Assembly (NCBI GenBank): GCA_012295275.1
Contig: CM022668.1
Coordinates: 6,324,001-6,388,000 of the forward strand
Direction: 5' to 3'
Length of the DNA: 64,000 nt
DNA from: Chrysomallon squamiferum
Lineage: Eukaryota; Animalia; Mollusca
Below, piece by piece: positions 9,001 through 48,429 of this stretch (its first letter is position 1; each line of letters begins with the position of its first letter). The notes beneath the pieces are model-generated. The model did no database searches. It saw only the letters and a program-made list of their open reading frames with translations, and was not told where the DNA came from. The translations under genes and the position numbers were made by a program.

Positions 9001-12000
9001 GAGGACTTCTCTGCTAATATTTTAACAACGTGTTCATTTCAGTATTTCAATCTCTGGCATGAATTCTGTTTTAATATTTTAATAAGTTATTCATCTCGGT
9101 ATTTTAATCTGTACGAGGATTCTCTTGTAATATTTTAATATCTTGTTCTGGGTATTTCAATCTGTGGGAGGACTTCTCTGATAATATTTTGACATCTCTC
9201 TATACTGTTTTTGTGATTTCCTATGTGATAAGTTTTGTGATTTTATGACACTTTTTTGTCTTTGTATTTCAATCTGTTGAAGAACTTCTCTGGTAATATT
9301 TTAACATGTCGTTCATCTGAGTATTTCAATCTGTGGGATGACTTCTCTGGTAATATTTTCACATCTCTCTCTACTGTTTTTGCGATTTCCTATGTGATAA
9401 GTTTCATGATTTTATGACATCTTGTTCGTCTCAGTATTTCAATATGTGGCAGGTCTTCTCCAGTAGTATTTCAACATCTTGTTCATCTCGGTATTTCAAT
9501 CTGTGGGAGGACTTATCTAGTAACATTTTGATATCTTCTTCATCTCAGTATTTCAATCTATGGGAGGACTTCTTTAGTAATATTTTGATATCTTGTTCAT
9601 CTCAGTATTTCAATCTCTGGCATGATTTCTTTAGTAATATTTTAATATGTTATTCATCTCGGTACTTCAATCTGTGGGAGGACTTCTATAGTAATATTTT
9701 AATATCTTCTTCATCTCAGTATTTCAATCCTTGGCAGGACTTCTCTGGTCATATTTTAACATCTTGTTCATCTGAGTATTTCAATCTGTGGGAGGACTTA
9801 TCTAGTAACATTTTAACATCTTGTCCATCTCGTTACTTCAATCTGTGGTAGGACTTCTCTGGTAATATTTTAATATCTTCTTCATCTCAGTATTTCAATC
9901 CTTGGCAGGACTTCTCTGGTAATATTTTAACATCTTGTTCATCTCAGTATTTCAATCTGTCGGAGGAGGACTTCTCTGTAATATTTTAATACCTTGTTAA
10001 TCTCTGTATTTCAATCTGTGGGAGGACTTCTCTGCTAATATTTTAACAACATGTTTATCTCGGTATTTGAACCTGTGGGAGGACTTCTCTGCTAATATTT
10101 TAACGTGTTCATCTCGGTATTTCAAGCTGTGGGATGACTTCTCTAGTAGTTTTTTAACATCTTTTTCATCTGGGTATTTCAATCTGTGGGAGGACTTCTC
10201 TCGTAATATTTTAATACCTTGTTAATCTCTGTATTTCAATCTGTGGGAGGACTTCTCTGGTAATATTTTAATATCTTCTTCATCTCAGTATTTCAATCCT
10301 TGGCAGGACTTCTCTGGTAATATTTTAACATCTTGTTCATCTCAGTATTTCAATCTGTCGGAGGACTTCTCTCGTAATATTTTAATACCTTGTTAATCTC
10401 TGTATTTCAATCTGTGGGAGGACTTCTCTGCTAATATTTTAACAATATGTTTATCTCGGTATTTGAATCTGTGGGAGGACTTCTCTGCTAATATTTTAAC
10501 AATGTGTTCATCTCGGTATTTCAATCTGTGGGAGGACTTCTCTCGTAATATTTTAATACCTTGTTAATCTCTGTATTTCAATCTGTGGGAGGACTTCTCT
10601 GGTAATATTTTGACATCTCTCTCTACTGTTTTTGTTATATTCTATGTGATAAGTTTTGTGATTTTATGACATCTTGTTCATCTCAGTATTTCAATCTGTG
10701 GCAGAAGAACATCTTGTTCTTCTGGGTATTTCAATCTGTGGGAGGACTTCTCTCCCAGTACTTTAACAATGTGTTCATCTCAGTATTTCAATCTGTGGCA
10801 GGACTTCTCCGGTAATATTTTAACATCTTGTTCATCTGCATATTTCAATCTGTCGGAGGACTTTTCTAGTAATATTTTAATATCTTCTTCATCTCGGTGT
10901 TTCCATCTGTGGGAGGACTTCTCTGGTAATATTTTAATAGCTTGTTAATCTCAGTATTTCAGTGCATGGGACGACTTCTCTAGTAATATTTTAAAATTTC
11001 GCTCTAGTCTTTTTTGTGACTCTTATTCACACATTTTGTGTTTTTATGATAGCTTGTTTATCTTAGTATTTCAATCTCTTGGCTTCTCTGGAAATATTAT
11101 AACATCTCTCTCTACTCTTTCTTGTTCATCTGGGTATTTCTCTCTGTGGGAGGACTTCTCTGGTAATATTTTGACAAATCTCTCTACTGTTTTTGTGATT
11201 TCGTATGTGATAAGTTTCGTGATTTTATGACATCTCGTTCATCTCAGTATTTCAATATGTGGCAGAACTTCTCCAGTAATATTTTAACATCTTGTTCATC
11301 TGAGTATTTCAATCTGTGGGAGGACTTATCTAATAACATTTTAACATCTTGTCCATCTCGTTACTTCAATCTGTGGTAGGACTTCTGTGGTAATATTTTA
11401 ATATCTTCTTCATCTCGGTATTTCAATCCTTGGGAGGACTTCTGTGGTAATATTTTAACATCTTGTTCATCTCAGTATTTCAATCTGTCAGAGGACTTTT
11501 CTAGTAATATTTTAACATCTGGCTCTAGTCTTTTCTCTGACCTTTTTTTGACATTTTGTTTGTTTATGATAGCTTGTTTCTCTCAGTATTTCAATCTCTG
11601 GACTTCTCTGGTAATATTTTATCTCTCTCTACTCTTTTTTTGTGATTTCCTATGTGATATGTTTTTTGATTTTATGACATTTTGTTCGTCTCATTATTTC
11701 AATCTGTGGCAGGACTTCTCTGCTAATATTTTAACATCTTGTTCATCTCGGTATTTCAATGTGTGGGAGGACTTCTCAGGTAATATTTTAACATCTTTTT
11801 CATTTCAGTATTTCAATCTGTGGCATGAATTCCCTAGTAATATTTTAATATGTTATTCTTCTTGGTATTTCAGTCTGAGAGAGGATTTCTCTTGTAATAT
11901 TTTAATATCTTGTTCTTCTGGGTATCTTAATCTGTGGGAGGACTTCTCTCCTAATATTTTAACAATGTGTTCATCTCAGTATTTCAATCTGTCGGAGAAC

Positions 12001-15000
12001 TTCTCTAGTAATATTTTAACATCTCGCTCTACTTTCTTTTCTGGCGTTTTTTTAACATATATTTTTATTTGATCACATCTTGTTTATCTCAATATGTGGG
12101 AGGACTTCTTGGGTAATATTTTAACATCTTGTTTATCTCGGTATTTCAATCTGTGGGAGGACTTCTCTGGTATTATTTTAATATCTTGTTAATCTCAGTA
12201 TTTCAATGCATGGGAGGACTTCTCTAGTAATATTTTAAAATTTCGCTCTAGTCTTTTTTGTGACTTTTAGTCACATATTTTGTGTTTTTATGATAGCTTG
12301 TTTATCTTAGTATTTCAATCTCTCGGCTTCTCTGGAAATATTATAACATCTCTCTCTACTCTTTCTTGTAATTTCCTATGTGATATGTTTTTTGATTTTA
12401 TGACATTTTCTTCGTCTTGGTATTTCAATGTGTGCTAGGACTTCTCAGGTAATATTTTAACATCTTTTTCATTTCAGTATTTCAATCTCTGGCATGAATT
12501 CCCTAGTAATATTTTAATATGTTATTCATCTCGATATATCAGTCTGTGCGAGGATTTCTCTTGTAATATTTTAATATCTTGTTCTTCTGGGTATCTTAAT
12601 CTGTGGGAGGACTTCTCTCCTAATATTTTAACAATGTGTTCATCTCAGTATTTCAATCTGTCGGAGAACTTCTCTAATAATATTTTAACATCTCGCTCTA
12701 CTCTTTTTTCTGGCGTTTTTTTAACATATATTTTTATTTGATCACATCTTGTTTATCTCAATATCTGGGAGGACTTCTTGGGTAATATTTTAACATCTTG
12801 TTTATCTTGGTATTTCAATCTGTGGGAGGACTTCTCTGGTAATATTTTAATATCTTGTTAATCTCAGTATTTCAGTGCATGGGACGACTTCTCTAGTAAT
12901 ATTTTAAAATTTCGCTCTAGTCTTTTTTGTGACTTTTAGTCACATATTTTGTGTTTTTATGATAGCTTGTTTATCTTAGTATTTCAATCTCTCGGCTTCT
13001 CTGGAAATATTATAACATCTCTCTCTACTCTTTCTTGTGATTTCCTATGTGATATGTTTTTTGATTTTATGACATTTTCTTCGTCTTGGTATTTCAATGT
13101 GTGCTAGGACTTCTCTAGTAATATTTTAACATTTTGTTCATCTGGGTATTTCTCTCTGTGGGAGGACTTCTCTTGTAATATTTTGACAAATCTCTCTACT
13201 GTTTTTGTGATTTCGTATGTGATAAGTTTCGTGATTTTATGACATCTCGTTCATCTCAGTATTTCAATATGTGGCAGAACTTTTCCAGTAATATTTTAAC
13301 ATCTTGTTCATCTGAGTATTTCAATCTGTGGGAGGACTTATCTAGTAACATTTTAACATCTTGTCCATCTCGTTACTTCAATCTGTGGTAGGACTTCTCT
13401 GCTAATATTTTAACAACGTGTTCATTTCAGTATTTCAATCTCTGGCATGAATTCTGTTTTAATATTTTAATAAGTTATTCATCTCGGTATTTTAATCTGT
13501 ATGAGGATTCTCTTGTAATATTTTAATATCTTGTTCTGGGTATTTCAATCTGTGGGAGGACTTCTCTGATAATATTTTGACATCTCTCTATACTGTTTTT
13601 GTGATTTCCTATGTGATAAGTTTTGTGATTTTATGACACTTTTTTGTCTTTGTATTTCAATCTGTTGAAGAACTTCTCTGGTAATATTTTAACATGTCGT
13701 TCATCTGAGTATTTCAATCTGTGGGATGACTTCTCTGGTAATATTTTCACATCTCTCTCTACTGTTTTTGCGATTTCCTATGTGATAAGTTTCATGATTT
13801 TATGACATCTTGTTCGTCTCAGTATTTCAATATGTGGCAGGTCTTCTCCAGTAGTATTTCAACATCTTGTTCATCTCAGTATTTCAATCTGTGGGAGGAC
13901 TTATCTAGTAACATTTTGATATCTTCTTCATCTCAGTATTTCAATCTATGGGAGGACTTCTTTAGTAATATTTTGATATCTTGTTCATCTCAGTATTTCA
14001 ATCTCTGGCATGATTTCTTTAGTAATATTTTAATATGTTATTCATCTCGGTACTTCAATCTGTGGGAGGACTTCTATAGTAATATTTTAATATCTTCTTC
14101 ATCTCAGTATTTCAATCCTTGGCAGGACTTCTCTGGTCATATTTTAACATCTTGTTCATCTGAGTATTTCAATCTGTGGGAGGACTTATCTAGTAACATT
14201 TTAACATCTTGTCCATCTCGTTACTTCAATCTGTGGTAGGACTTCTCTGGTAATATTTTAATATCTTCTTCATCTCAGTATTTCAATCCTTGGCAGGACT
14301 TCTCTGGTAATATTTTAACATCTTGTTCATCTCAGTATTTCAATCTGTCGGAGGACTTCTCTCGTAATATTTTAATACCTTGTTAATCTCTGTATTTCAA
14401 TCTGTGGGAGGACTTCTCTGCTAATATTTTAACAACATGTTTATCTCGGTATTTGAACCTGTGGGAGGACTTCTCTGCTAATATTTTAACGTGTTCATCT
14501 CGGTATTTCAAGCTGTGGGATGACTTCTCTAGTAGTTTTTTAACATCTTTTTCATCTGGGTATTTCAATCTGTGGGAGGACTTCTCTCGTAATATTTTAA
14601 TACCTTGTTAATCTCTGTATTTCAATCTGTGGGAGGACTTCTCTGGTAATATTTTAATATCTTCTTCATCTCAGTATTTCAATCCTTGGCAGGACTTCTC
14701 TGGTAATATTTTAACATCTTGTTCATCTCAGTATTTCAATCTGTCGGAGGACTTCTCTCGTAATATTTTAATACCTTGTTAATCTCTGTATTTCAATCTG
14801 TGGGAGGACTTCTCTGCTAATATTTTAACAATATGTTTATCTCGGTATTTGAATCTGTGGGAGGACTTCTCTGCTAATATTTTAACAATGTGTTCATCTC
14901 GGTATTTCAATCTGTGGGAGGACTTCTCTCGTAATATTTTAATACCTTGTTAATCTCTGTATTTCAATCTGTGGGAGGACTTCTCTGGTAATATTTTGAC

Positions 15001-15750
15001 ATCTCTCTCTACTGTTTTTGTTATATTCTATGTGATAAGTTTTGTGATTTTATGACATCTTGTTCGTCTCAGTATTTCAATATGTGGCAGGACTTCTCCG
15101 GTAATATTTTAACATCTTGTTCATCTGAGTATTTCAATCTGTGGGAGGACTTATCTAGTAACATTTTAACATCTTGTCCATCTCGTTACTTCAATCTGTG
15201 GTAGGACTTCTCTGATAATATTTTAATATCTTCTTCATCTCGGTATTTCAATCCTTGGGAGGACTTCTCTAGTAATATTTTAACATCTCGCTCTAGTCTT
15301 TTTTGTGACCTTTTTTTGAGATATTTTGTGTTTTTATGATAGCTTGTTTATCTCAGTATTTCAATCTCTTGATTTCTCTGTTAATATTTTAATATCTCTC
15401 TCTACTGTTTTTTGTGATTTCCTATGTGATATATTTTTTGATTTTATGACATCTTGTTCATCTCGGTATTTCAATCTGTGGGAGGACTTCTCTGGAAATA
15501 TTTTAACATCTTGTTCATCTCAGTATTTGAATCTGTGGATGGACTTCTCTGGTGATCTATCTAAAATCTGTCTGTCTCTTTCGTTCAGTTCTGTAGATGA
15601 TTTTTTTGATGCACTCATCAAATTATTGCTATTCTTAGCAGCATTCATTCTGATGAGGTTTTCTTTCTGTGTATCTATCTCCAATAAATGTTTCTCTCTG
15701 AGATCTTTTTTAAACATTTGCACTTTGCTATATAATTACAAAGAACTTCA
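1..15750 (-). pseudogene. Degenerate, expanded duplicate of the terminal exon of the upstream gene (head + repeats + SPK-rich tail)
   Basis: Head 15520-15723 (FKKDLREKHLLEIDTQKENLIRMNAAKNSNNL) matches the exon start (YKKDLEETHLLEMDIGERENFTRIHAVKNSNNL). Tail 1-420 (MSPKISHRRLRK) matches 15788-16200 (MSPKVSHRRPRK). Many in-frame TGA/TAA stops and indels lie between. Confidence 0.75.
480..15540. repeat. ~15-kb satellite of 57-bp units (about 260 by length) derived from the coding repeat, with nested higher-order duplications
   Basis: Consensus aacatcttgttcatctc(a/g)gtatttcaatctgtgggaggacttctctggtaatatttt recurs throughout, interleaved with a second 57-bp variant (ctctactcttttttgtgatttcctatgtgatatg...). 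Near-identical ORFs at 9414/13802 and 9997/14383 show a ~4.39-kb offset duplication. Confidence 0.97.
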
Positions 15751-16146
15751 ACATCTAAGCAGTATCTGTTTCTGTACTGACAGTTCTTTATTTATGTCTC
15801 TTTGATCGATGTTTTCTGTGTTTCTTTCTACTGTGTACAAATTCAGGTGACATTCTTAGTATTTCATCTTCTCTTTTTCTTAAGCTGCTGAGTGATATTT
15901 TGGGCGATATTTTAAAAATGCATTCTTCTGCCTTTGTTGAGCTGCATGATAATATGGGTGATAGTATAGTAAATCTTTCTGATCTCTTTTTTGATCTTTT
16001 ATGCAACTTTTTGGGAGACTTTCTAACGTCTTGCACTTCTTTCTTTCTTAATTTTCCAATTGATATCTCAGGTGACATAATAATTCCTTTTTCTCTCATT
16101 AGTGATTTTCTTGGTCTTCTATGTGATACTTTAGGTGACATGTGAA

Positions 16147-17574
16147 CTATTCTCTCTTCTTTTGTTCTGATTCTTCCATGTGGTATTTTTGGTGACTTGT
16201 CTTGTAACTTTTATCATCTTGTTCATCTTGGTATTTCAATCTGTGGGAGGACTTCTCTGGTAATATTTTAACATCTCGATCTATTCGTTTTTGTGATCTT
16301 CTATGTGACATATCTTGTGATATTTTATCACCTTGTTCTTCTTGATGTTTCAGTCTGTGGGAGGACTTCTCCGGTAATATTTTAACATCTTGCTCCAATC
16401 TTTTTTGTGATCTTGTATGTGACATATTTTGTGATATTTTATCATCTTGTTCTTCTTGGTGTTTCAATCTGTGGGAGGACTTCTCTGGTAATATTTTAAC
16501 ATCTTGCTCCAATCTTTTTTGTGATCTTGTATGTGACATATTTTGTGATATTTTATCATCTTGTTCTTCTTGGTGTTTCAATCTGTGGGAGGACTTCTCT
16601 GGTAATATTTTAACATCTTGTTCATCACGGTATTTCAATCTGTGGGAGGACTTCTCTACTAATATTTTATCATCTTGTTCATCTCGGTATTTCAATCTGT
16701 GGGAGGACTTCTCTGGTAATATTTTAACATCTTGTTCATCTCGGTATTTCAATCTGTGGGAGGACTTCTCTGGTAATATTTTAACATCTTGTTCATATCT
16801 GTATTTAAATCTGTGGGAGGACTTCTCTGGTAATATTTTAACATCTTGTTCATCTCGGTATTTCAATCTGTGGGAGGACTTCTCTGGTAATACTTTAACA
16901 TCTTGTTCATCTCTGTATTTAAATCTGTGGGAGGACTTCTCTGGTAATATTTTAACATCTTGTTCATCTCGGTATTTCAATCTGTGGGAGGACTTCTCTG
17001 GTAATATTTTAACATCTTGTTCATCTCGGTATTTCAATCTGTGGGAGGACTTCTCTGGTAATATTTTAACATCTTGTTCATCTCGATATTTCAATCTGTG
17101 GGAGGACTTCTCTGGTAATACTTTAACATCTTGTTCATCACAGTATTTCAATCTGTGGGAGGACTTCTCTGGTAATATTTTAACCTCTTGTTCATCTCGG
17201 TATTTCAATCTGTGGGAGGACTTCTCTGGTAATATTTTAACATCTTGCTCTACTCTTTTTCGTGATTTTCTATGTGACGTGTTTTGTGATTTTTTGATAA
17301 CTTTTTCTTCTTGGTGTTTCACTCTGTGGATTTTTTTGTGTGATCTTTCTGAAATTTGTCTTTCTCTTTTGTTCTGTTCTGAAGATGATCTTTTTGAAAC
17401 ACGTATCAAATTATTGCTGTTCTTAACAGCATGAATTCTGGTGAAGTTTTCTCGCTCTCCTATGTCCATCTCCAATAAATGTGTCTCTTCTAGATCCTTT
17501 TTATATAATTTCCGAATAATCTTAATCAAATTATCATCGTCTGGGCACTGGTTTAAAACTTCATTTACCATGAC
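16147..17574 (-). CDS. Terminal exon of the membrane-protein gene, carrying intact 19-aa repeats (DVKILPEKSSHRLKYRDEQ and variant DDKISQNMSHTRSQKRLEQ)
   Basis: 480-aa ORF in the track; acceptor tttcattcag|GTC at 17574; the 57-bp units have no stop on this strand. Confidence 0.8.
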   Translation of the reverse strand, partial: VMVNEVLNQCPDDDNLIKIIRKLYKKDLEETHLLEMDIGERENFTRIHAVKNSNNLIRVSKRSSSEQNKRERQISERSHKKIHRVKHQEEKVIKKSQNTSHRKSRKRVEQDVKILPEKSSHRLKYRDEQEVKILPEKSSHRLKYCDEQDVKVLPEKSSHRLKYRDEQDVKILPEKSSHRLKYRDEQDVKILPEKSSHRLKYRDEQDVKILPEKSSHRFKYRDEQDVKVLPEKSSHRLKYRDEQDVKILPEKSSHRFKYRYEQDVKILPEKSSHRLKYRDEQDVKILPEKSSHRLKYRDEQDDKILVEKSSHRLKYRDEQDVKILPEKSSHRLKHQEEQDDKISQNMSHTRSQKRLEQDVKILPEKSSHRLKHQEEQDDKISQNMSHTRSQKRLEQDVKILPEKSSHRLKHQEEQGDKISQDMSHRRSQKRIDRDVKILPEKSSHRLKYQDEQDDKSYKTSHQKYHMEESEQKKRE

Positions 17575-18999
17575 CTGAATGAAATACATTTTTTATCAAC
17601 AGTTTAAAAATATTTTACAAGTAATTCAGTTTTCTGATTAATTAATAGGAAAATAGATATTATTCACATATTATAACATAGAAGCAATTTCTTCGACTAC
17701 CTTTTGTGAGAAGAATTCCTGTTAGCTTTTCTGAGATGGAATAAAACATTTTTATATTGATAAACTGTAATTTCTGCATAAAATATTAGTTTCTTTTATT
17801 TCTCCATGTTTCTGTCTATAGCAGCAGGAATAAAAAGAGATAACAGGTAAAAAACAGTAATTTTAAATGTTACTTACTTCATATGGTACTTTTGATAAAT
17901 CCAGTGTAAGATCCTTAAATGGAGAGACCTGAAAAATAAACAGAATAATGCTTTACCAAAGAGCCATATAATTTATTTTATATAAGTTCTGGTTTTGAAC
18001 ACCATAAGTATAAAATAGGAAATGAAGAATTATAATGCTGCTATGATAAGAAAAATTATGTTTCAACAAGGAATAACAGACACTGTCTGCAGGGTCATTC
18101 TGGTTGTATGGTTTGACATCAGAAGGCTACAGAAATATTAAAAATAAAACTGATTAAGTAATTGTTTAACATATGCTGTTTGACTGCTACATTTTTATTT
18201 AAGGAATGTCTTTTTGATAATGATAATAACAATAACAACAAAAACAATAATAATAATAATAATAATGATCATAATAACAATAATAACAACAACAAGAATA
18301 ATAATAATAGTGATAATAATGATGATGATGATGATGATGATAAGAAGAAAAAGAAGAAAAAATAATAATAGCAATAATAACAACAATAACAGTATATCAA
18401 ATTCTAATTTAGACATGACAAGATTGTTTGGTCAGAAGTGATTCAACACACAGCCTTAAAACTCTGTCCCACTGCATTTATTTTATACATGTCACTGTCT
18501 TAAGATATTTAAACAATTAATGCTCACCGCTTCAACAATTTCTGATCTTTCGACAGGATCTTTGAGTTCCTTTTCTGGCAATGTATCATGGATCTTAACA
18601 TCATCATTTTCACAGATTTGTTCTGGCTTTGTATCATTTGGCATAATGTTTTTCTCTTGTAACTCCTGTTTGAATGTTTGTACATCATCATATAATTTGT
18701 GAATACTTATAATCAAAGGATCATCGCTTGGTAAGCGGTTCAAAACTTCATTTACCATGGACTGAAATAAATATATTTTTTATCAATGTATTCTATTGGT
18801 TTCTTATAAATTTATTTGTTTCTGTTAAACACACTGGAATACAAACAGATAAAAATAAACACACTAATTTGAAATGTTACTTACTTCATATTGTAACTGG
18901 GATGAATCCAAAGTATCATCTTTCCTTTGAGACACCTGAAAAATAAAACAAAATAACTTTACCACATCTCAGCTAAGAATATTTTTAAGTGTATGCATG

Positions 19000-19034
<35 letters not shown>

Positions 19035-20245
19035 CTCCATATGTCTGTGCTTACACAAAGAATAGAAAGAGAAGCAAAATTTTATCTATTATGACTGATG
19101 AATTATAATCTTAACCTTAACTCTATCATAAAATTAGAGTCTGTTATTTTCATTATTTTAACCTTTTATTAATTTTTATCAAGATCTGAAATGTATCATT
19201 TGTGGATTTTTAAAAAAGTTAAATTCATACACACTCAACTAGAATAGCAAAAATAGAAAAATTAATGAACTGAAGAATCATAACATACTGATAGATTATA
19301 CAACAATTATGTTAAACATAGTAAAATAATATGGTTACTCACCTCTGTCTCAGACACATTCACATCTTCATTGTTAATGATATCCAAGTTCTTGCCAGGA
19401 TCTTTGTGCTGATCATCTGTTTTGCTATCATGCTGATTCAGAAAAGGTACATTTTTCAGATTAATTATCCTCTCCTTCCTCCTTCTTCCTAGAGCTGAGG
19501 TATTTTTGTTATAAATATGCTGGAGAAATCTTCTGGGAGAGAACCATTTTATCCAATTTTCTTTTTCCTGGTAGAGAACAAAATTGAAAAATTGCAGTTA
19601 TGTTAATTCTAATTAAATCTGAAAGAAATCAGTCCATATAGTATAAAAAAGAAAATATTTAATTTAGAAATTTCCTGGCAATAATATATTAAGAAAGTAT
19701 TTTAATTTCAAATAATTTTAATTTACAGATTCTTTTAATTCTATGACAGCAATATGCAGAAAGTAAAATTAAGAATAAATGCATTTTTCTGTATTCACCT
19801 CCAACTTGTGTTTAATTTGTTCTATATTTATAATAAAAAATCAGTGTTAATAAATCTCACAAAAATTCATTTACCACAGTGTGAAAGAATTATTTTGTTA
19901 ATAAATCAGAAAGTACTGTAGTTACACAGTATTATCACTGATTTTTGTTATATCACAGTTACAATTTTTTTTGTTTTCAACTTCATTCCATAACTGTTAA
20001 TTTTCTGAGATAGAATGAAATAAAATATGCTACACAGAGGTTTCTACCTTAAATGTTAGTGTCTTGTATTTTTTTATTTGTTCCAGTCTATACCAGTTGG
20101 AATACAAACAGATGAAAAATAAATACACTAATTTTAAATGTTACTTACTTCATCTGGCTTTGATGACAAATCCAGTTGAAAATCTTCAAAAAGCTGAAAA
20201 ATGAAACAAGATCTCAATGAAGATAATTTTAAGTATATACATTAA

Positions 20246-20292
<47 letters not shown>

Positions 20293-21735
20293 ACTATAAT
20301 ATATAAACTATAATGCTTCATAAATCAAAAAAATATTTTTAATAAAATAGTCAACCATATTACTTGCAAAGACTAATTGTTGCTAAACATAATTATAATG
20401 GTTCTTGAGCAAAACTTACTGTAATTTGCAGACTATATTAATATTTAAATTCATAATCAGATGAAAATATTAGTAGTAATAATAACAAATCAGGAAAATT
20501 TAATGCAAAGTAAACTATACAGATGGGAAAAAATTAGAAGCAAGAAACAACCTGTGACAATGGAAATGAGATGTTAATATTAAGATATTTATTTGTCAAA
20601 AAGTAATTCATAAATATTTTAAACTCATAGAATAAAAGAAGTGAGTGAATTTTAAACTGCTCCAGCTGATTTATATTTACATGGGACTAATAACTTTATT
20701 TTAAACACTAACAAATAAAACTGTCATATTATTGACCGTCGATTTCATAGACCTTGCTTTTCCAAATCTGAAAAAATCACAACTTGACCCCATTTTCCAC
20801 TGGAAACCTTATTTAAAGCTACTATTATGTTATTTTGAGTACCACTATACAGTCACAGCAACCATTTTCAACCCATTTTCCATCAAGGTAAGAGAAAATT
20901 TGACAACAGCCCCATAACTATTCTAACCTAACAAACTTCAGCCAGTCTAGCCTACATTTTTGTACTGTACATTTTTCTTTATATATACTGTCCGCATGAA
21001 ATTTCTAGACTTTTGCAATAATTGGACTGGTGCTACCCCCTATTAGCCCATGAAATTAAAGGTCAACGGTATATAAACTATTTCAAAACAGATAGATATC
21101 AGTGATAAAATTATATCATTACTTACATTGATAACAACTGCTTCTAATGGATGAGACCTCTGCAAAAATTAAAGAATCACAACAAATAATCAAAAATCTT
21201 TCACCACCTTATTAATTTACAAATGTAAGAAAGTCTTCCCTCTAAAAAAGTTTCATTTTTATTGTATTAAATGGAAATATTTTCTGAAATGTGTTAATTT
21301 ATAATTTGAATTAAAACACAGTGAACAAATCATACCTTATGGTGAAAGTCAAGAAGAACAAATTTACATATGAATCGGTTTTTTTTCACCCATTATGTTA
21401 CAAACTATATAGATGCAGTAAGATATTTTTTTCAAAATGTTATAAAAATAAAAACAGCAGCAAAGTTATTTATAATCAGTGAATAATTAAAACAAGCTGG
21501 AAAGATAAAAATAATTTAAACAGTTAATAATAATTACTCACCCCTCTTTCTAGATCATTCCTGTCATGTGCAGTTGGATGAGAAGTCTGTGGAAATATTC
21601 AAAACAAAAAATTAAAATAATTGTTTAATGTACTCTATTTGACCACTATATTTATGTTAAGGAAATATCATTCTTTTATGTATGATATATTAACAACAAC
21701 AACAACAATAATAATAATAGTTATAGTAGTGGTAG

Positions 21736-21775
<40 letters not shown>

Positions 21776-24700
21776 TGTAATAGTAATAGTAATAGTAGAA
21801 GTAGTAGTAATAATAATAATAAAAATTACATTATATCAAATCCCTATTTAAACATGATAAAGTTGATTGGTCTCTGTGACGGACACACCTGCTGACCTCT
21901 CAGAAAGCGTGCCTGTCGTAGACGTGCTTCACAACAGCTTGCTCTGATTAGCACATTAATTTTTTTCAGTTTCAGATTGGTCTCAGTGTACAAGGGATTT
22001 AACAAACAGCTTAAAACATTTCACCTTCTGCATCTATTTTAAGCATATGAAAATTTTAATAATGCAAAATTTATGTTAAACAGCAAATAATAGTTACTCA
22101 CCTCTGTCTCAGACTCACTCTGATCATTTAACAAAAGAGGTACTGCCTACAGAAACATCACAAATAAAACATATCAGCTGGTGTACTTGACTATATTTTT
22201 ATTAAAATAAATATAATAATAATAAGAAGAATAGTAATAGCACTTAGTCATAATAATAATAATAATAATAATAATAGCATTAACAACAATGAAACTGACT
22301 GGTCTCTAAGCAGAATGGATTCAAAAAATAGTCTCAAGTATCTAATCTCCTCCATTTACTTTATACACATGAACATCTCAATAAGGCCAAATTAAAAATT
22401 CTCACTCACTTCTTCACTGTTAAGTATTTCCCTCTTTTTGCCTGGATCTTTCGGCCGCCTGTTTGATTTATTATCATTCTTACTCAGAAATTGTTCTATG
22501 CCTTCTTCTAAGTCAGTCATTCTTTTCTTCTTCTTTCTTCTTAGAGCTGAGGTATTTCTATTATAGAGATGCTTGAAAAACTTTTTTGGAGAAAAACTTT
22601 TATCGGTCTTCTTTATCACCAGCTAGAGAATAAAATTAAGAAAAACTGCTATAAGTTAATTGTTATCAAATGTGATAGAAATCAGTCCATATTATTTAAA
22701 AAAAGAGAAAGGACTTTTTATTTTTCATTTTAATATTTATTTAAATTTATTTAATTTTTGAAAGTTTCTGACAATTACACATTCAGAAAGTTTTTAAATT
22801 TCAAATACTTTTTGGTAACAAATCTTTCACTCTCTCATTTCTTGTTTTTATTTTTCATTCTTAATACATCAGTACATATACATTAAATTAACTAGATTAT
22901 TAACTGTATTGCTGGCTTAAAAAATAAAAATGTTTTTAGGGCAGTCTAGCACCCACTAACAATTAATATTTTCAAATAAACATGTTTTATGTAAAATTTT
23001 ATCCACAAAATAATGTAATTTTTACTTTTCATATTAATTTTGTCATAGGTATCTACTGTATTTATCTATATGTCTATCTAAGGAAAATTATTTATTTTAC
23101 GTCTATTTATTTACCTTCCAGACTAAAATTATAATAATAACAAAAATCAGAACAAAATGGCAAGCGACAATTATTATCATAAGCATCTGCAATAGGTCTT
23201 TATCTTCTTCCTGAAAATAAAGGTTATGATCAGCTTTAGACTTATTTTAATGATTTAAGATACATTTAGAGTGAGTTATAAGTTTATTAAGGGTCAGGTT
23301 AAGTAAAATTAAATAATCCCTTTCATTAAATGAAATGACTAAGCATTTCCATGTTGACACTTTACTTCTTTGTCAATTTATTTTTATAAATTTTGTCATT
23401 AGTTTGTAATTATTAATTTCAAATTCCATGTTCTTGTGCATATGAGCTTACTAACTCAAGGTAGAAAATGAAATGAAAAAATTAAACTTTAACTACATTA
23501 AAATAACAACTAATTGTAGTATAACATGTGATAAAGAGTGCAGGACACCAAAATATCCATCTTCAATACATCTGCATTTCCTCCTCATAGGTGTAAGTAA
23601 GCTGAAAATTAAATAATCAATAAAAGAAAATGTCATATGTGAAAAACATACACAGACCAAAAATCCAACTGAAAGGAACAATTTTGATACCCAATGGAGA
23701 AGCACTTATTATTTTAAGCTTCTCCAGCTTCTATACTTGTCTACTGTCTTCTGTGTGCTAATGAATTCCTTGAAAACTGAAACAACCATGACTGTTTATG
23801 GTAAATGATGCATTCAGTTTCTCAACCACCTTTATCAGGGTTAACTTGGCCATTTGTAAATGTTATTATTTGGTAGCATGACACATATTTTATAGTCATA
23901 AACCCACATAATTCCAGAATATCACTTTTTTTTTAACTTGGTTTCATTCCATTTACTCTGACCTTCTGCAGTAATGAAGCTTGTAGCATTGTTCAATAAA
24001 TGCTTTCTACATCAAACAGAATTCAATACAAGCATTTCACAGCACCACCAAGGCAATTAACAAGGTGGAAAAAACTTCCAAGATGAGAAAGTGATCATTT
24101 TCCTCTGAGGTGAGAAGCAACTATACAGACCGTTGCTTAACTGCTTCAGGCAGTTCACTGAATTCTTTGAGTGACTTCGTTAAAATTTTATGACATGCAT
24201 TATTTACCCTATATTTAACAGTACACAGTAAATGCATTACCATTATTCAAAGTCTACAAAACATAGCCACTTAGGAAAGTATAATGCTGACATGTCTTCA
24301 TAGGGTATGAAAATTTGGAGATGATCTTTATTTTTTTTCCTCATTTTTTTTTTCTTGAATTGCTATATCACCAGGGATTTCTTTCAAAAAACTATATAAA
24401 GCAACTTTTTTGTGACAAGCATTATACCATCAAGACAACAAATGTTTATGACTAAATCATGATTTAAGAACAAGCTGTCATGATATACAGATAATAGCTA
24501 AACGAAGATTCTTGAAATAAATAGGGCTGTGAGAGGTGTTTACTGGTATTCATTAAAAGTAAATATATCCCTTCTTTACACATGATTTTGAATTAATTTA
24601 CATCTGTCTATCTATTTATATGTCTATCTAGAACAACAATAATAATAAACAAATAATATATTCTTTTCTTTTTGAATTAAAAGGTAGAAAAAATGATAAA

Positions 24701-27257
24701 TAAATAAACATTATAATAATGTTAATAATAACATCAGTTTAACAGAAACTGTTCTGAACATTCTGTGACATGTCTTTTACTAATTATGTGTAGTTATGTT
24801 GAAAGCATGAGGGTAACAAAATCAAAATTTCATTTAAAAATATAAATTATACTCCCAAATGTGCAATTCAAAATTTTTAAATGATTAATTGTGTTCTTAC
24901 AGGAAGCTCATAATCTTCACTATCCTCCTCATCATCTTCTCCTTCTGGTTCTTCATCTAAGCCTGGCAAACCTTCATTAGAGCCCAATAAACCCTTTGCA
25001 TTACCCGCTGAAACAGAAAACATATTAATCATTATCTCACTTACTTGCAATTTAAGGGACTAATTTTCTACATCTTCTTTTTATTCTTATTATTATTGAG
25101 AGTTATATTTTATCAAAGATTTATATTCCTTCACTAAAATTAATTTATTCCTTCTTCTAAAATACATTAAAAATAAACTTTCTTTATTCAAAGCTTTGTC
25201 TGAATCAGAATTCACTGTGTTATAAATTGGGTCTTTAGCTAAACCCACAGACAAAGCAAAAGATTCAGATGACTGCTTGTAAAAAGTTAACAATACTGTT
25301 GACGCTCTATTTCATGGGCTTATATGGAAGAGAAACATTCCAGAAAAATAAAATATAAACATTAATCCTAAAATACACCAAATCATTAAACTTTAATATA
25401 TATATATATAACGCTATATATAATAATGTAAGAACAATACAGAGACATATAAACAATTAACGAAAAATGTAGGCTAGATGGGTGAAGTTTATTACATTAT
25501 GGGTGCAATTGTAAAATTTAGTCTTACTTTAAGAGGTAATCATAATAATTATATCTAAAAGTAAGGTTTCAAATGAGAGCAAGTTCATATTTTGTGAGTT
25601 TTCCAGATTTGATATGGATTTCCCCAAATCTGGAAAACTAAGATCCATGAAATTGTAATTATATAAGTATAGTACACCCATGGTTTAAAGATTCAATAAG
25701 GTCAAAGGATATATATTGGAGTTTGTAAAATGATAATTTAATTAAATTATAAGTACCTAAAATTTTGAGATAAGATGTGATTCAGATAATGAATGCTAAC
25801 AACCCTAGTAGTTCATGAATGTGTTTTCACAACTAGTACAACCTGTTGACCATCTACTGAGTTACTTTCCATGTGAATTCATCATTAAAGAAATTCTAAA
25901 GGAATTAAGTCTGAAAATAATCTGTTTCTAAGACTAAATTCCAGCAAGGTGACTTTCATTAAATCGAGGATACACTTTGTATACAAAAGAAATCAAGAAA
26001 TAAAACAACTCACGTTCTTCAATGGGCCCTTCGTCTTGTTCAGCTTCCAGTTCAGGATTGTCCATGATGTTATCAAGTGCCAACACAGCATTTTCTACTA
26101 TTTGTTCTTCAGCAAGCAAGTATTTCTCTTTGGAGGATGGATTGCTTAAAGAAGCTATGATTTTCTTGTGATCAGCATACATGTCTGTTAAACGGGTTTC
26201 AAAATCTTCACCATTGAGGTCAAAAACTGTGCCAGTGTACATTGCAAATACAGGTTCCTCACCAGAGAGTGTTGCTGATTGGGGTACCTTACCTAAATGA
26301 AAATAAATAAATAAATTAAAAACAAATTAAAAAATGACACAGTTGTTAAGAAAGACCAATTTAATATGTATATTATGATTCTAAAACTCAAAGATTATTA
26401 TATATAATTAGTAATAAAAATTATTGTATCAGAATGTAGATATTTCTATTTTTATATATATTAAATTAATAGTGTAACGAAGTAGTCAATTTATTATCTA
26501 AGCAGTCTTACCGCAATTAGTGATATCATTGGTATCACAAATATCATCATGGAAAACAATTGTCTGTGGCTTTTTTTGAACAGCTATGCAAAATTCTAAA
26601 AACTCGCATTTGCATTTTAACTCATGACGCCTGATATCACTGAAAATTAAACATTCAACATTAACATTATTAAAATATGAAAATTTTGTTAAATTATTAC
26701 TCACAGCAACTTAAGAGCAGTTCTAAATTTTCATCTTACTTCTCAAAAAATCTATTTTAAAAATATAAGTGATATAAATTAAAGAAAAGTTAAAGATTTA
26801 GCCAAAAGACTGTAGAAATTATTGTTTGTATGGCTGCAAAAGAATTAAAAAATTAAAGACAATAAAACTATTAAAAAAGGACAAAACAAAACAAAAAATA
26901 TATTTTTTCTTTTTAAATTGCAAATAAAATAAGACCTAATATTTGATTAATTGCTGTACTATAAAGAAATGGAGAAATCTCAGTAATGACATTATAAAAA
27001 AGATTTATCATAAATTTCAATAAGTTCCAAAGAAATCTGCTAAAAAACAACAGTTAATTAAAAATATCAAAAACCTACACAATTAGTACACCAGAATGTT
27101 TTGCAATACATTTTGAGAGTTGGTCTAAATCTTTCTCTAAGAGGACATTACAGGAAACAACTTCGTTTTCCAGTCTACATCCTTCAAAGCAAAACTGCGA
27201 GGAGTTTCCTTGAGATGTAACAACAAAGGTGCTTAATAACAGCAGTACTGTCAACAT
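16147..27257 (-). CDS. Uncharacterised 16-exon type I membrane protein: signal peptide, LRRNT/LRR/LRRCT-like ectodomain, acidic stalk, TM helix, long cytoplasmic tail ending in 19-aa tandem repeats (~1067 aa as assembled)
   Basis: Hand-built exons, all AG/GT bounded and phase-compatible: 27257-27079, 26639-26512, 26292-26014, 25007-24901, 23210-23115 (TM: LLQMLMIIIVACHFVLIFVIIIILVWK), 22622-22410, 22146-22102, 21586-21542, 21159-21127, 20193-20149, 19567-19343, 18935-18885, 18761-18528, 18126-18082 (weak donor GTCTGT), 17928-17878, 17574-16147. N-terminus MLTVLLLLSTFVVTSQG is signal-like. Cys patterns CFEGCRLENEVVSC and VLIVDIRRHELKCKCEFLEFC resemble LRR caps. The true stop may be 15788 if the 1-nt deletion near 16210 is an assembly error. 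Confidence 0.78.
16215..17300. repeat. Coding 57-bp tandem repeat, ~19 highly homogeneous units
   Basis: Same unit as the satellite, nearly invariant and in frame. Confidence 0.95.
18217..18390. repeat. (AAT/AAC/GAT)n compound trinucleotide microsatellite, intronic
   Basis: Seen directly; paralogous tracts at ~21690-21825 and ~22215-22290. Confidence 0.9.
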
Positions 27258-28149
27258 AATGCTCCTGCTGCAGCATAAGAAAATAGAAAAAAAGCCATTA
27301 ATACTATTTTATTATTTAAAAATTAAAACAAAAATTAAGTAAAATAAAACTATACTAAACAACACATATACACACACATGCACAAAAACAAAATAAAAAC
27401 AATAAAAAAAATAAATAACAGTACAACAAATTTTATGGTCTGTAATGTACCATTTCTGGAAAGGAGGAAATTTTTCCTGGAATACTATAAAAAAAAAAAA
27501 AAAAGACCTCAACTCTTTAAACAATATGAAATTAGACTGGACATACTGAGATAAATATTGATTAGATTCACAAGATTAGAATAGCCTGTGTCTCTCATAT
27601 TTATCAGCATTCCATGCAAATAATTACTCTTTAATATTTTTTTAATGCATTATTTAATATTTTAACATCAGTTGTGTGAAAAATAATGCTTATTACTCTT
27701 CAATATTTTAAAAAAGTATTAGTTAATATTTCAGCATCCTTTATGTGAGTTTTATTTTTTATTATTATTATTTTTTTTTTAAATGTTACTAGAGCTACCA
27801 GATAGTTTATCCAGATTCAAGAAAACTGGTAAGGGTATAAATTTGCCATTAAATACAATTTCGTTTTTGTTTTATACTAGCCATTGCTTATTTAGCATTG
27901 ATAAAAGTTTACATTAACAAAAATATTAAAAAAAAATCCAGAAATATGAGGAACTCCAAAAATATTTGATAAAAGGTGTCACCTGTGATCTGTACCACAA
28001 AATATATTTAATTATTATTTTGAGCAGCTTAAGTCAGTTATTTCTGGGAGGCGTTAGAATCAGTCACTATGTGTCCTGGTCTGACTTAATATTAATTTAA
28101 TCATTAAGAGCTCTCAAACTTTGACTCAAAGAAATTATTCGGGCCTGTG

Positions 28150-28193
<44 letters not shown>

Positions 28194-28194
<1 letters not shown>

Positions 28195-28410
28195 TGTTAT
28201 TCTTGTACAAACAACAGTTCTCTATCATTCAAAAATTTATGTTAATTTAAATGAAATTAATTCAAAGCTGTACGAAGCAGACGATCAAACCATAGATAAT
28301 GGTAACTATGACACGTCATCACAATAAGGCGGAAGTTACTATATATGGTTACATCCGGGATATTTTAGCGTCGCTCTGTATCATGTCTATAAATAAACAC
28401 TGATTGGTTT
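28194..28410 (-). promoter_or_regulatory. Possible 5' non-coding exon and promoter of the membrane-protein gene
   Basis: Donor-like AACAG|gtaat at 28194; locally CpG-richer stretch with ETS-like GGCGGAAGT (~28328) and CCAAT box (ctgattgg, ~28400). Confidence 0.3.
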
Positions 28411-28983
28411 CTTTCCTTTGATGTCTGTCTGTCTCTAAAATAAAAAATGAATCTATTTCCAATAATAGTATTTTGTAAGAATGTGGGATATTTTGTTCTT
28501 GTTGTTGTTTGTTTGTTGTTGTTTTGAGTTGTTTTTGTTTGGGTTTTTTATTGGTTTTTTGGTTTTTTGTTGGGGTTTTTTATTGGTTTTTTGGTTGTTG
28601 TTTTTATTTTTTTTATTTTTTTTTTTTTTTTTGGTAATACAGTGAGATCAGCATGATTCGGAGTTCGCGCCATTTATTACTTTTAAATAGAGTTAAACCT
28701 CGTTATAAAACCTAGTGGTATACCGCCATCCTATATAATGTACTGATTTCAGTAATCGTGTCTTAATGATATGATACGAGATCTTAAAAATTAAGCTTTC
28801 ATTAATTTATTCATTTGTTCATTCATTCATTCAATCATTTATTCCTTTAATTTGTATACAGTGATCAACAGAGAGAATGAATTAAAAAGAAAATCCAAGA
28901 AGAATATACCTCTATCTCTCCTGTTCCGTATAAACCTCTTTCTCACTTTCTGTCTTTTTCCCTGTCTTTCTTTCTATGTTTTT

Positions 28984-29056: not shown

Positions 29057-30145
29057 CTGTCTGTAAAAGAAAAGAAACTATTATTATACAAAACAAAAAA
29101 TAAAAATCATTTAACTTCTCTGTACTGTTTCTATTTCTAACTGAAGTAGCTAACACTTATTGTCTATCGCTTCCTGAAGTCTTAAAATAACTGATAAAAA
29201 TAAACGCAATCGTAGACAAATAAAGATTTTTTTTTATTATCATTGACGTAGAGCTCTTTGTTTTCAACAAGATCAGTTAAATAATATCTTCCTGTAATTT
29301 ACAGGTAACATGAATAGTTATGAGCAGCAATAGTCATATTAATAACCACAACAACAGAAATAATAATAATAATAACAACAACAACAATAACAATTACAAC
29401 ACCAGTAATATAGTAATAATAACAGTATTTATTTATAATATTACTATTATTATTATTAATATTGATAGATAAATTGATTAACTGACAGACAGATAGGCAG
29501 ATACAGATTTCTAAATTGATGTAGATACTGATATAGATCTAGATAAACAATGATGATGACAATTTAAAAAAGCCTATTTCAGAAATCTAGCTAGGATAAT
29601 AATTTCTTTCTGTTTAGACAAGTCAGTCATTGAACAAGTTACAGATGACTTGATACGGTGATGTTGATATTATTCCAGCTCTATTATTTACAGTCCACTA
29701 TATCGAACGTCTACCGTTCTTTTATCATCCACCAGTTGATGTTTTACTACATGTATGCCTTACGATCACATATTAAACATTTCACGTAACCATTGCATGT
29801 GTTTAACACTTATTAACGGCATAACAACACAGTTAGCATGACAACCAGTTAAGAAAGGGAGAATCGTTATATCAATTTATAATGTGCATATCGCACTTTA
29901 TTCTGCCCTGAGAGACAGAAAAATCTGTAATAGAAATTGATGTGACTTTTTCTCTACATTTTTTTTATGCGTTTCCGTGCGACGTACAATTGTAAAATGT
30001 GTGTTTAAGCTCTCGATAAAGTGGTTGTGATTCTCAAAGGAAAATACATTCTAAAGTGTTAACTACAGGTCAAAAGTGTATTTTATTTATTTATAATTAT
30101 CAACAAATTTGAATTTAAAAAAATAATAATAATAATAATTTAGAA

Positions 30146-33749
<3,604 letters not shown>

Positions 33750-36377: not shown

Positions 36378-41797
<5,420 letters not shown>

Positions 41798-42183
41798 TTT
41801 CTTGTTCTCAACACCCTCACAGTGATAACACAGTTTTTGTCTGGCAGTTACTGAGGTGCGCTTTTATCTACGGACAAAATCAATAACGCGAAAGAACGTA
41901 CCTTGAAAATTGCATTGTAGAAAACGGTCAGTTTATTTTATTAATAAGTCGTACTTTTTCATCTTCTTCTTCTTCTTCTTCTTCTTATTATTATTATTAT
42001 TATTATCTCTAAGCAGTATCCTTTCACATGCATTGATATAGAGGGATTTATTTAGGAATATTTAAAGCTACTGTCACACAGTGCGATTCAAAATAAGATC
42101 ATTATTATTTATTTTTTCCCTAATGAAAAGTGAGTTAGCCAGTCAGCGAGTCAGCGCTTCATTTTAATCAATGGAGGATTTGT

Positions 42184-47697: not shown

Positions 47698-48429
47698 TTT
47701 TTAATTAATTTTCCTTCCTTCAAATGTTTCGTTTTTCTTTTCCTCACTTTTCTGTTTTCTCCCTCTCCTTTGTGATTATTATTAATATTAGTATTATAAA
47801 ACTGTACGGTGAACAAAGAAGAGATCAGAAAATAACTAAACAAACAGCTGATTAAACTGATCGGTAGCTATCGGAATCTAATAATATACTCAGTCACTGA
47901 TAAAAATAACAACACTTTCCCCAGGATCAGTCAAATTCTAGGAATATATTACATTTCTGTCTTTGCTTTTGTTAAAACTTTACATTTTGTTTATTTGTTT
48001 GTTTTATTATTTTTTTATTTTTTTATTTATCACTTTTGTAATTTTATTATTTTTCTAAACGCGTGTAGCTATTCATCACCTGTCCGTTTGTCTGCGTATC
48101 AGTCTAGCTACGTGTACGTGCGTGTGTGCGTGTTCGTTCGTGTGTTTGTATGTGTGCTTCTGTGTGTTTCTGTCTCCATATCTGTATGTGTGTATAATGT
48201 GTATGTACGTATATGCAAACGGGCATACATACATCGATGCACAAATATAACCACACATATATTTACATAACACCCACACACCCGCTCACATGCCCACCTT
48301 CACACACATATCTTAACGTGATCTGCCTTTGGAGTACGGGCGAATGGTAAAATCAAACTATCTTCACTAATTTAATTATTTGATATAATCGATTATTTCT
48401 AAATGAAGGCCAGATTATTGTACTGTTTT

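What the first reader, a model, noticed from the sequence alone, without database searches (positions are those of the whole stretch)
16147..27257. Unrecognised receptor-like protein: minimal LRR ectodomain on a very large repetitive cytoplasmic tail
Seen: 16 exons join in frame, most too small for the ORF track. About 230 aa are extracellular and more than 800 aa cytoplasmic. The ectodomain reads as LRRNT-like (C-x3-C-x7-VSC), essentially one LRR strand (VLIV|DIRRHELKCKC, compare LxxLxLxxNxxxCxC) and an LRRCT-like segment, then an acidic stalk. Established: metazoan LRR exons often have a phase-2 intron at this strand position, as here. There is no TIR, kinase or other known signalling domain; instead there are charged 19-aa Tyr-containing repeats. 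I know no family with this architecture. It could be a lineage-specific adhesion, gamete or immune surface protein with a multivalent intracellular scaffold (inference).
Basis: partly seen in the sequence, partly recalled or inferred. Interest (0 to 1): 0.8.

Follow-up and report, generated by a model that had tools for sequence, protein, structure and literature searches.

The report
Snail mini-LRR protein, replaceable repeat tail
A spliced, transcribed snail gene encodes a predicted one-pass membrane protein whose small cysteine-rich head, likely a leucine-rich-repeat domain shrunk to little more than its two caps, is shared with a deep-sea vent snail while its 900-residue repetitive tail has been wholly replaced, so it likely works as a partner-binding anchor with a floppy scaffold inside the cell rather than as a signalling receptor.

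Summary
The gene is real. Sixteen minus-strand exons join in frame, and RNA contigs follow the exons and join two pairs directly. Four corrections: the stop at 16147 comes from a one-base assembly deletion, and RNA and DNA-type contigs run on to 15788, adding a basic Ser-Pro-rich end (about 1,172 aa); exon 14 looks skipped; a 5' non-coding exon exists; the 'stalk' holds a conserved predicted helical hairpin. One true homologue turned up among 1.84 billion representatives: Gigantopelta aegis XP_041351381.1, mislabelled 'rac GEF JJ-like'. It shares the signal peptide, 8 cysteines, the hairpin and a membrane histidine (about 40% identity in the Cys domain), but its 737-aa tail is built from unrelated repeats. 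LRR origin is supported by motif, cysteine spacing, intron position and a weak GPIb-alpha hit (E 0.086), but no Pfam or fold match confirms it (model pLDDT 59). Best reading: an LRR-derived partner-binding head on an interchangeable disordered scaffold; partner and tissue unknown. The 57-bp coding repeat continues for about 15 kb past the stop as a decayed, apparently transcribed array. The scan had not noted this on other DNA.

The parts
28318..28586 (-). Likely promoter: two ETS-like sites (28358, 28336), one TGACG CRE-like site (28318), four CCAAT boxes, CpG-richer than the gene body
   Evidence: 2 of the 4 ETS-pattern matches on the minus strand of the window lie here; function inferred
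28194..28306 (-). Likely 5' non-coding exon ending in CAG before a GT donor (a second candidate donor lies at 27983)
   Evidence: X1 contig carries 110 unmapped bases upstream of 27270; donors; placement inferred
27079..27267 (-). Coding exon 1 (ATG at 27257): signal peptide, LRRNT-like C-x3-C-x8-C, helix, start of the single LRR-like strand
   Evidence: X1/X2 contigs cover it; 17 of 43 mature residues identical in G. aegis
26512..26639 (-). Exon 2: rest of the strand and LRRCT-like C-x-C-x22-C-x7-C
   Evidence: 18 of 42 identical in G. aegis, score 112 against shuffle maximum 51
26014..26292 (-). Exon 3: linker, predicted beta-hairpin plus helical hairpin, start of acidic stretch
   Evidence: AlphaFold pLDDT 85-91 over residues 31-70 of the exon; 19 of 56 identical in G. 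aegis
24901..25007 (-). Exon 4: acidic linker
   Evidence: joined to exon 3 in an X2 contig
23115..23210 (-). Exon 5: transmembrane segment with a His 14 residues before the first cytoplasmic Lys, as in G. aegis
22410..22622 (-). Exon 6: juxtamembrane SPKK motif, amphipathic basic segment, RRKKKKR run
   Evidence: duplicated as exon 11 (70% nt identity)
20149..22146 (-). Exons 7-10 (22146-22102, 21586-21542, 21159-21127, 20193-20149): 33-45-nt phase-0 exons
   Evidence: exon 7-8 junction in two X1 contigs
17878..19567 (-). Exons 11-15 (19567-19343, 18935-18885, 18761-18528, 18126-18082 probably skipped, 17928-17878): copies of earlier exons (6/11, 8/14, 10/12/15, 13/16)
15788..17574 (-). Last coding exon: unique start, 15-18 units of a 19-aa repeat, then about 140 aa of basic sequence (pI 11) with 7 Ser-Pro motifs about 19 aa apart; one base missing in the assembly behind 16208
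1..15787 (-). Downstream duplicate of the last exon's blocks (15712-15498 at 77%, 410-1 at 74%) flanking about 15 kb of decayed 57-bp repeats; likely 3' UTR
   Evidence: X1 contig matches 15560-15893 without a difference, and X1 contigs hold stop-bearing units

Best explanation
This transcribed, spliced snail gene encodes a predicted single-pass membrane protein of about 1,170 residues whose conserved outer part (likely an LRR domain reduced to its two cysteine caps around one strand, then a predicted helical hairpin) likely binds one fixed partner, while the 910-residue charged tail, unrelated in sequence to the tail of the G. aegis homologue, likely acts as a disordered multivalent scaffold or tether. 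Shown: splicing, reading frame, and head conserved / tail replaced. Inferred: four disulphides from the 8 shared cysteines, assembly with a partner membrane protein helped by the shared membrane His (as small LRR subunits such as GPIb-beta and GPIX do), and a tail that works through bulk properties (length, charge blocks, Tyr stickers, Ser/Ser-Pro phosphorylation sites) rather than a specific domain, which would let it be rebuilt by exon duplication and minisatellite growth.
For: Gene and frame. Homologue found with exon 1 alone (E 1.9e-5); exons 2 and 3, not used in the search, align in order with scores above all 200 shuffles, while tail, repeats and C-terminal block score no better than shuffles (126, 195 and 189 of 200 reach them). 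8 of 9 Cys shared with identical spacing; membrane His at the same place. LRR-like motif in both species, 0 of 20,000 shuffles each, pattern written after seeing the sequence; best PDB profile hit GPIb-alpha LRRCT, E 0.086, at the expected place; exon 1's second and third Atlas hits are LRRNT clusters, 0.87 (Mollusca, LRRNT in 47%) and 0.80, leads only; the model shows strand-helix alternation across the Cys domain. Both tails are long, charged (38-45% D/E/K/R) and poor in order-promoting residues (20-27% against 42% in the Cys domain). GPIb-beta has a single LRR and the GPIb-IX subunits assemble through their membrane helices (PMC8976409, passages).
Against: No Pfam LRR, LRRNT or LRRCT match. 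The Asn of the LRR core is His in both species, and the last LRRCT spacing is 7, not 15-20. The model is of low confidence (pLDDT 59, pTM 0.47) and resembles STAS domains best (Z 5.0-5.9). Only two species are compared, so 'conserved' means about 40% identity with no genome-wide yardstick. The TM plus juxtamembrane block is only marginally above shuffles (12 of 200). No partner, tissue or location is known. Contigs that differ at about 6-12% of bases in exons 3, 6, 13 and 16 point to further copies, which would fit a diversifying family too.
Confidence: 0.45

Rival explanations
1. A gamete protein, for example an acrosome or nuclear-envelope membrane protein whose basic Ser-Pro-rich tail tethers the membrane to sperm chromatin or perinuclear cytoskeleton under phosphorylation control.
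For: The restored C-terminal 140 aa are very basic (pI 11.2) with 7 Ser-Pro motifs including SPKK, and SPKK/SPRR plus a RRKKKKR run follow the membrane segment; SPKK motifs in sperm histones and Lys-rich repeats in mammalian cylicins are recalled, not tested. Fast tail turnover and a CRE-like promoter site fit. X1 holds the transcript, X2 weakly, and X4 of the same study next to none, a hint of restricted expression only.
Against: The G. aegis tail has no S/T-P-x-K/R motif. Tissues of the runs are not given, and contigs cannot show levels. No paper held at least 5 of 6 acrosome/cylicin terms, and the SPKK/mollusc search listed nothing on such a protein.
Confidence: 0.2
2. An immune or symbiont-recognition surface receptor of the Biomphalaria GRC/PTC2 type: a lineage-specific single-pass protein that senses microbes and signals through its tail.
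For: Snails have resistance loci of single-pass genes with no known domains (PMC7494358, passages; PMC13712769, passages). LRRs are common sensor folds; PAN-fibrinogen genes lie next door; paralogue-like transcripts exist; the homologue's host is a symbiotic vent snail rich in pattern-recognition receptors (PMC7895826, passages).
Against: No TIR domain; only 3 scattered YxxL/I/M/F/V sites, none in the repeats; no second copy of exons 1-4 in the 64-kb window; the protein is over twice the 166-530 codons of PTC2 genes; one strand offers little of the concave surface that LRR sensors use (inference).
Confidence: 0.2
3. The head is not LRR-derived but a small new disulphide-bonded alpha/beta domain, and the tail is largely neutral repeat growth on a weakly constrained or decaying gene.
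For: No family model or LRR structure matches; the tail cannot be aligned between species; the same repeat has decayed for 15 kb beyond the stop (TGA in 45 of 91 scored downstream units); exon 14 has a degenerate donor.
Against: Motif, Cys spacing, intron position and the GPIb-alpha hit agree on LRR caps. Both species keep a tail of 740-910 residues in frame, and the apparent frameshift is an assembly error.
Confidence: 0.15

Closest known systems
Gigantopelta aegis XP_041351381.1 / XP_041351380.1 ('rac guanine nucleotide exchange factor JJ-like', an automatic name)
   Same: Signal peptide, 8 Cys with the same spacing, LRR-like strand, hairpin block, acidic stretch, membrane His, long charged repetitive tail.
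   Different: Tail sequence unrelated: 19 YSx(D/E/G) tetrapeptides and an E/K/R/Q-rich stretch instead of 19-aa units; it has no Pfam domain at all, so the GEF name is unsupported.
Platelet GPIb-beta and GPIX (small single-LRR subunits of GPIb-IX)
   Same: Type I membrane proteins with a very small capped LRR head, no enzyme domain, assembly through membrane helices (PMC8976409, passages); best PDB profile hit is the related GPIb-alpha LRRCT, E 0.086.
   Different: Those have short tails (8 residues in GPIX) and, as recalled, one full repeat between the caps; this protein seems to have none, has a shortened LRRCT, an added helical hairpin and a 910-aa tail. No orthology is shown.
Molluscan Toll-like receptors with few LRRs
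   Same: LRRNT/LRRCT-type Cys clusters (Cx8C; CxCx22C) and one membrane segment; B. glabrata TLRs carry 1 to 26 LRRs (PMC10903818, PMC1899181, passages).
   Different: No TIR domain; hairpin and acidic linker between LRRCT and membrane; many small phase-0 tail exons.
Biomphalaria GRC/PTC2 polymorphic single-pass genes
   Same: Snail single-pass proteins with no known domain and no homologue outside gastropods (PMC7494358, passages).
   Different: Those are 166-530 codons, clustered and hyper-polymorphic; here one 1,170-aa gene per 64 kb with an LRR-like head. No sequence comparison with them was made.

Membership tests
Extracellular LRR proteins with LRRNT/LRRCT caps | Hydrophobic pattern of the conserved segment LxxLxLxxNxL | tested here: met
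   All four L positions are L/I/V in both species, followed by xCxCxxLxF; 0 of 20,000 shuffles each; pattern written post hoc (consensus from PMC1899181)
Extracellular LRR proteins with LRRNT/LRRCT caps | [quoted passage not shown] | tested here: not met
   His in both species
Extracellular LRR proteins with LRRNT/LRRCT caps | N-terminal cluster Cx5-14C | tested here: met
   C-x3-C-x8-C in both species (one search lists Cx8C for TLR3)
Extracellular LRR proteins with LRRNT/LRRCT caps | C-terminal cluster CxCx22-25Cx15-20C | tested here: not met
   CxC-x22-C fits, but the last spacing is 7 in both species
Extracellular LRR proteins with LRRNT/LRRCT caps | Match to Pfam LRR, LRRNT or LRRCT models | tested here: not met
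   No such hit for single exons, for the G. aegis ectodomain stretch or for the whole G. aegis protein
Extracellular LRR proteins with LRRNT/LRRCT caps | Capped LRR fold | tested here: inconclusive
   Model pLDDT 59 with alternating strands and helices; best matches STAS-type domains Z 5.0-5.9 and helical hairpins Z up to 7.2
Extracellular LRR proteins with LRRNT/LRRCT caps | Phase-2 intron splitting the first Leu of xxLxLxx (typical, not defining) | tested here: met
   Intron 1 splits that codon in phase 2; pattern documented for rice LRR kinases (PMC3050792, passages), recalled only for animals
Toll-like receptors | Cytoplasmic TIR domain | tested here: not met
   No Pfam TIR in the tail exons scanned (6, 11, 13, 16 and the restored end) or in the G. 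aegis protein
GPIb-beta/GPIX-type subunits | Single capped LRR with a short cytoplasmic tail | tested here: not met
   Tail of 910 aa against 8 residues in GPIX
GPIb-beta/GPIX-type subunits | Assembles with partner chains through membrane helices | not testable with these tools
   Partner unknown; shared membrane His is only a hint
ITAM/ITIM-bearing immune receptors | Paired or consensus YxxL/I motifs in the tail | tested here: not met
   Three scattered YxxL/I/M/F/V sites (YESM, YDDV, YEVM), none YxxL/I and none in the repeats
Biomphalaria GRC/PTC2 single-pass genes | Clustered genes of 166-530 codons | tested here: not met
   About 1,172 codons; no second ectodomain copy in the window by blastn
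Biomphalaria GRC/PTC2 single-pass genes | Hyper-polymorphic alleles linked to infection outcome | not testable with these tools
   Contigs show variants, but alleles and paralogues cannot be told apart
Rac guanine nucleotide exchange factors (name given to the homologue) | RhoGEF/DH-PH or DOCK domain | tested here: not met
   0 Pfam families for P0002 at E up to 0.1

The most novel reading that the evidence does not exclude
The head is a 'zero-repeat' LRR domain, the N- and C-caps fused around one shared strand and smaller than GPIb-beta/GPIX, founding an unnamed snail family in which a fixed partner-binding head drives a membrane-attached condensate or chromatin/cytoskeleton tether through a tail that each lineage rebuilds from scratch; here the tail's coding minisatellite has spilled into a transcribed 3' region of about 15 kb that would serve as a reservoir for tail turnover.
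Probability: 0.2. Interest if true: 0.75.

Novelty: new variant of a known kind. Interest (0 to 1): 0.45.

Why it matters
If the fold is confirmed, it marks the lower size limit of the extracellular LRR architecture and gives a natural experiment in which the same head sits on two unrelated disordered tails of similar length and charge, a direct test of whether such tails work by bulk properties rather than sequence. It also corrects a misleading database name (a 'Rac GEF-like' label on a protein with no such domain) and shows a one-base assembly error hiding 140 residues. With no partner, tissue or phenotype known and only two species, it does not yet open a long-standing question.

Tried and rejected
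Word-based protein searches found nothing: exon 3 against 162-2000 aa, exon 1 against 32-104 aa and 105-2000 aa; weak evidence by the tool's own note. Four of the 5 HMMER hits (P0001, P0003, P0004, P0005) are sums of short matches in repetitive proteins and were rejected. Pfam hits on the repeat exon (PTHB1_pf, Phage_TTP_2, MYO10_CC, TcdA1_RBD_2; no stretch passing alone) and DUF7748 on exon 2 (E 0.02) are treated as noise. Single-exon PDB sequence searches gave nothing meaningful. Atlas: exon 3 gave no usable hit; exon 1's first hit was a bacterial hypothetical cluster (0.88), and all scores are under 0.9. Foldseek found no match at E 0.001 for either model in PDB or for the ectodomain model among viral proteins, and no LRR protein was among the rows listed by Foldseek or VIA-align; the Cys domain was never folded alone, so this does not exclude the fold. 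A two-copy fold of the G. aegis ectodomain gave no answer (score 0.00). Metagenome scans with exons 3 and 1 found no relative. No whole genome is held, so paralogues could not be mapped. Run X4 holds next to none of the words and was not used as evidence. The idea that the 15-kb array is a giant exon broken only by assembly errors was rejected: the region past the stop matches an X1 contig without a difference and has stops in all three frames, and X1 and X3 contigs carry units with TGA in the repeat frame. The 0 of 10 versus 45 of 91 TGA contrast is partly circular, since the coding part is defined by having no stop. The sigma-70 promoter scan does not apply to an animal gene. Four short peptide motifs were not found in the readable supplements of PMC11871041; its tables seem to list accessions, one file was unreadable, one too large and the spreadsheet cut, so this says nothing. 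PMC11863921 (passages) did not bear on LRR introns.

Full report
Observation. The minus strand between 27257 and 16147 holds 16 exons that join into one 1,067-aa frame with GT-AG introns. The N-terminus reads as a signal peptide and a second hydrophobic run lies at about aa 237-262 (judged by hydropathy, no SignalP). Nine cysteines lie in aa 23-102. Tail exons are copies of each other: 6/11, 8/14, 10/12/15 and 13/16 align, flanking intron sequence included. No tail exon scanned matches a signalling domain in Pfam (5 tail pieces scanned, the short exons were not).

RNA support. Four public runs were listed, from two studies. Laid on 17250-27400, RNA run X1 covers the exon bins and little of the introns (Spearman 0.72 over 29 of 30 bins, the bin with a high-copy repeat left out), unlike the DNA-type run X3 (-0.16). 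Two of the 15 junctions were seen directly (7-8 in X1, 3-4 in X2); the joint table was cut. Exon 14 has almost no cover and a weak donor and is probably skipped. Contigs extend upstream of exon 1; a donor ending in CAG at 28194, just downstream of ETS-, CRE- and CCAAT-like sites in a CpG-richer patch, is the likely 5' exon (inferred). Several contigs differ at about 6-12% of bases in exons 3, 6, 13 and 16, and one variant is also in X3 at full depth, so further copies of the gene probably exist.

The end of the gene is wrong in the assembly. X1 and X3 each have a contig bridging 16208 with one extra base in a 4-base run. This removes the stop at 16147 and joins the repeats to the open frame 16210-15788: about 140 basic residues (pI 11.2) with seven Ser-Pro motifs spaced 18-21 apart, likely older copies of the same 19-aa unit. 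Without exon 14 the protein has 1,172 aa and a 910-aa tail. Past the stop, the blocks of the last exon recur (77% and 74% identity) around about 15 kb of decayed 57-bp units; the whole array has about 295 copies. An X1 contig runs from the coding end to 15560 and beyond with no difference, X1 contigs hold stop-bearing units, and summed depth at the repeat unit is about 100 times that of the flanks in X1 as in X3. This hints that the array is transcribed, as a very long 3' UTR or from paralogues; contig depth is a poor measure, so it stays a hint.

Relatives. Three word-based searches and two metagenome scans found nothing. A full HMMER scan of 1,835,955,588 representatives with exon 1 gave 5 hits at E 0.001; four are repeat artefacts and one, P0002 (E 1.9e-5), is Gigantopelta aegis XP_041351381.1, named 'rac guanine nucleotide exchange factor JJ-like' but without any Pfam domain. 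Exons 2 and 3, which were not in the query, align to it in order (scores 112 and 85; shuffle maxima 51 and 54 of 200). Identity is 17 of 43 and 18 of 42 in the Cys domain, 19 of 56 in the following block and 9 of 23 in the membrane segment, whereas tail, repeats and C-terminal block do not beat shuffles. Eight cysteines keep the same spacing, and a His sits 14 residues before the first cytoplasmic Lys in both. The G. aegis tail (737 aa) is as charged and as poor in order-promoting residues but is built from Tyr-Ser tetrapeptides and an E/K/R/Q-rich stretch. The window is therefore likely from a snail, perhaps a relative of G. aegis; earlier scan notes also call this genome a snail. The species was not determined, and one 59-aa query cannot fix the family's range.

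Is the head an LRR domain? For: both proteins match LxxLxLxx.xLxCxCxxLxF (0 of 20,000 shuffles each, pattern post hoc); Cx8C and CxCx22C fit published cap spacings (PMC1899181, passages); intron 1 splits the first Leu position of xxLxLxx in phase 2, as described for plant LRR kinases (PMC3050792, passages) and recalled for animal LRR genes; a two-species profile ranks the GPIb-alpha LRRCT first in the PDB, weakly (E 0.15 and 0.086); the Atlas lists two LRRNT clusters among the top three hits for exon 1, below its reliability line. Against: His in place of the core Asn, a last cap spacing of 7, and no Pfam match. AlphaFold on the G. aegis ectodomain with the three window exons as extra rows gave pLDDT 59, with strands and helices alternating through the Cys domain and a helical hairpin after it; exon 3 alone gave the same hairpin at pLDDT 85-91. 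The closest solved shapes are STAS domains (Z 5.0-5.9, rmsd 2.6-4.6, 84-98 aligned), which, as recalled from SCOP, are short beta-alpha superhelices as LRRs are; this neither proves nor excludes the fold. I put LRR origin at about 0.7 and do not file the protein in any named LRR family.

How it likely works. Shown: a spliced, transcribed gene; a head kept between two snails; a tail kept in length and character but not in sequence. [quoted passage not shown] The repeat Tyr is not in an SH2-type YxxL/I/M/F/V motif, so a specific phosphotyrosine array is unlikely. Rivals are a gamete tether (basic SPKK-type end, but absent from the homologue), an immune or symbiont receptor like the Biomphalaria single-pass resistance genes (PMC7494358 and PMC13712769, passages), and a non-LRR head on a neutrally growing tail.

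In print? Ten literature searches listed no paper describing this family. In one search none of the 30 listed of 127 papers held the accession numbers or the 'JJ-like' name. Passages of two peltospirid papers (PMC7895826; PMC11871041) do not mention LRR proteins; supplements of the latter were only partly readable. The library lacks most subscription journals. The scan's earlier findings hold no look-alike; one mussel LRR cluster (e1-9883119) is a different family as described there.

Verdict. A real, apparently undescribed snail membrane-protein family of at least two species; a new variant of extracellular-LRR single-pass proteins if the fold holds; function open. Interest 0.45.

Noticed in passing
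window 459-15787 (-): About 15 kb of decayed 57-bp repeats continuing the coding minisatellite; the unit's CGA codon reads TGA in 45 and CAA in 8 of 91 scored units, the signature of CpG decay; internal large duplications (for example near 9354-9851 and 13742-14239).
   Followed up: partly
window 16209-16212: One-base deletion in a homopolymer run of the assembly, shown by RNA and DNA-type contigs; other frameshifts in this assembly may be errors too.
   Followed up: yes
window 30119-33749 (+) and 36955-41863 (-): Two convergent genes, each with a PAN domain exon and fibrinogen C-terminal exons.
   Followed up: partly
window 44390-45760 (-) and 49550-50953 (-): Tandem pair of innexin genes, each with nearly the whole domain in one exon; 417 of 464 aligned residues identical; each lies next to a 40-bp tandem array.
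   Followed up: partly
window 62321-63726 (+): CD225/dispanin gene with a long acidic N-terminal region in an overlapping second frame (possible frameshift or splice near 63010-63022).
   Followed up: no
window 21873-21975: Short element in intron 7 with depth near 50,000 in run X3 and present in all RNA runs: a very high-copy repeat.
   Followed up: no
window 48428-48772 (-) and 43456-43573: 18/36/90-bp repeat giving a Leu/Asp/Val-rich open frame with no Pfam match, with a related 18-bp array near 43500, one beside each innexin copy.
   Followed up: partly
P0002 (G. aegis XP_041351381.1), about aa 340-470: Run of 19 YSx(D/E/G) tetrapeptides resembling, by recall, the Tyr-Ser low-complexity domains of phase-separating proteins.
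   Followed up: partly
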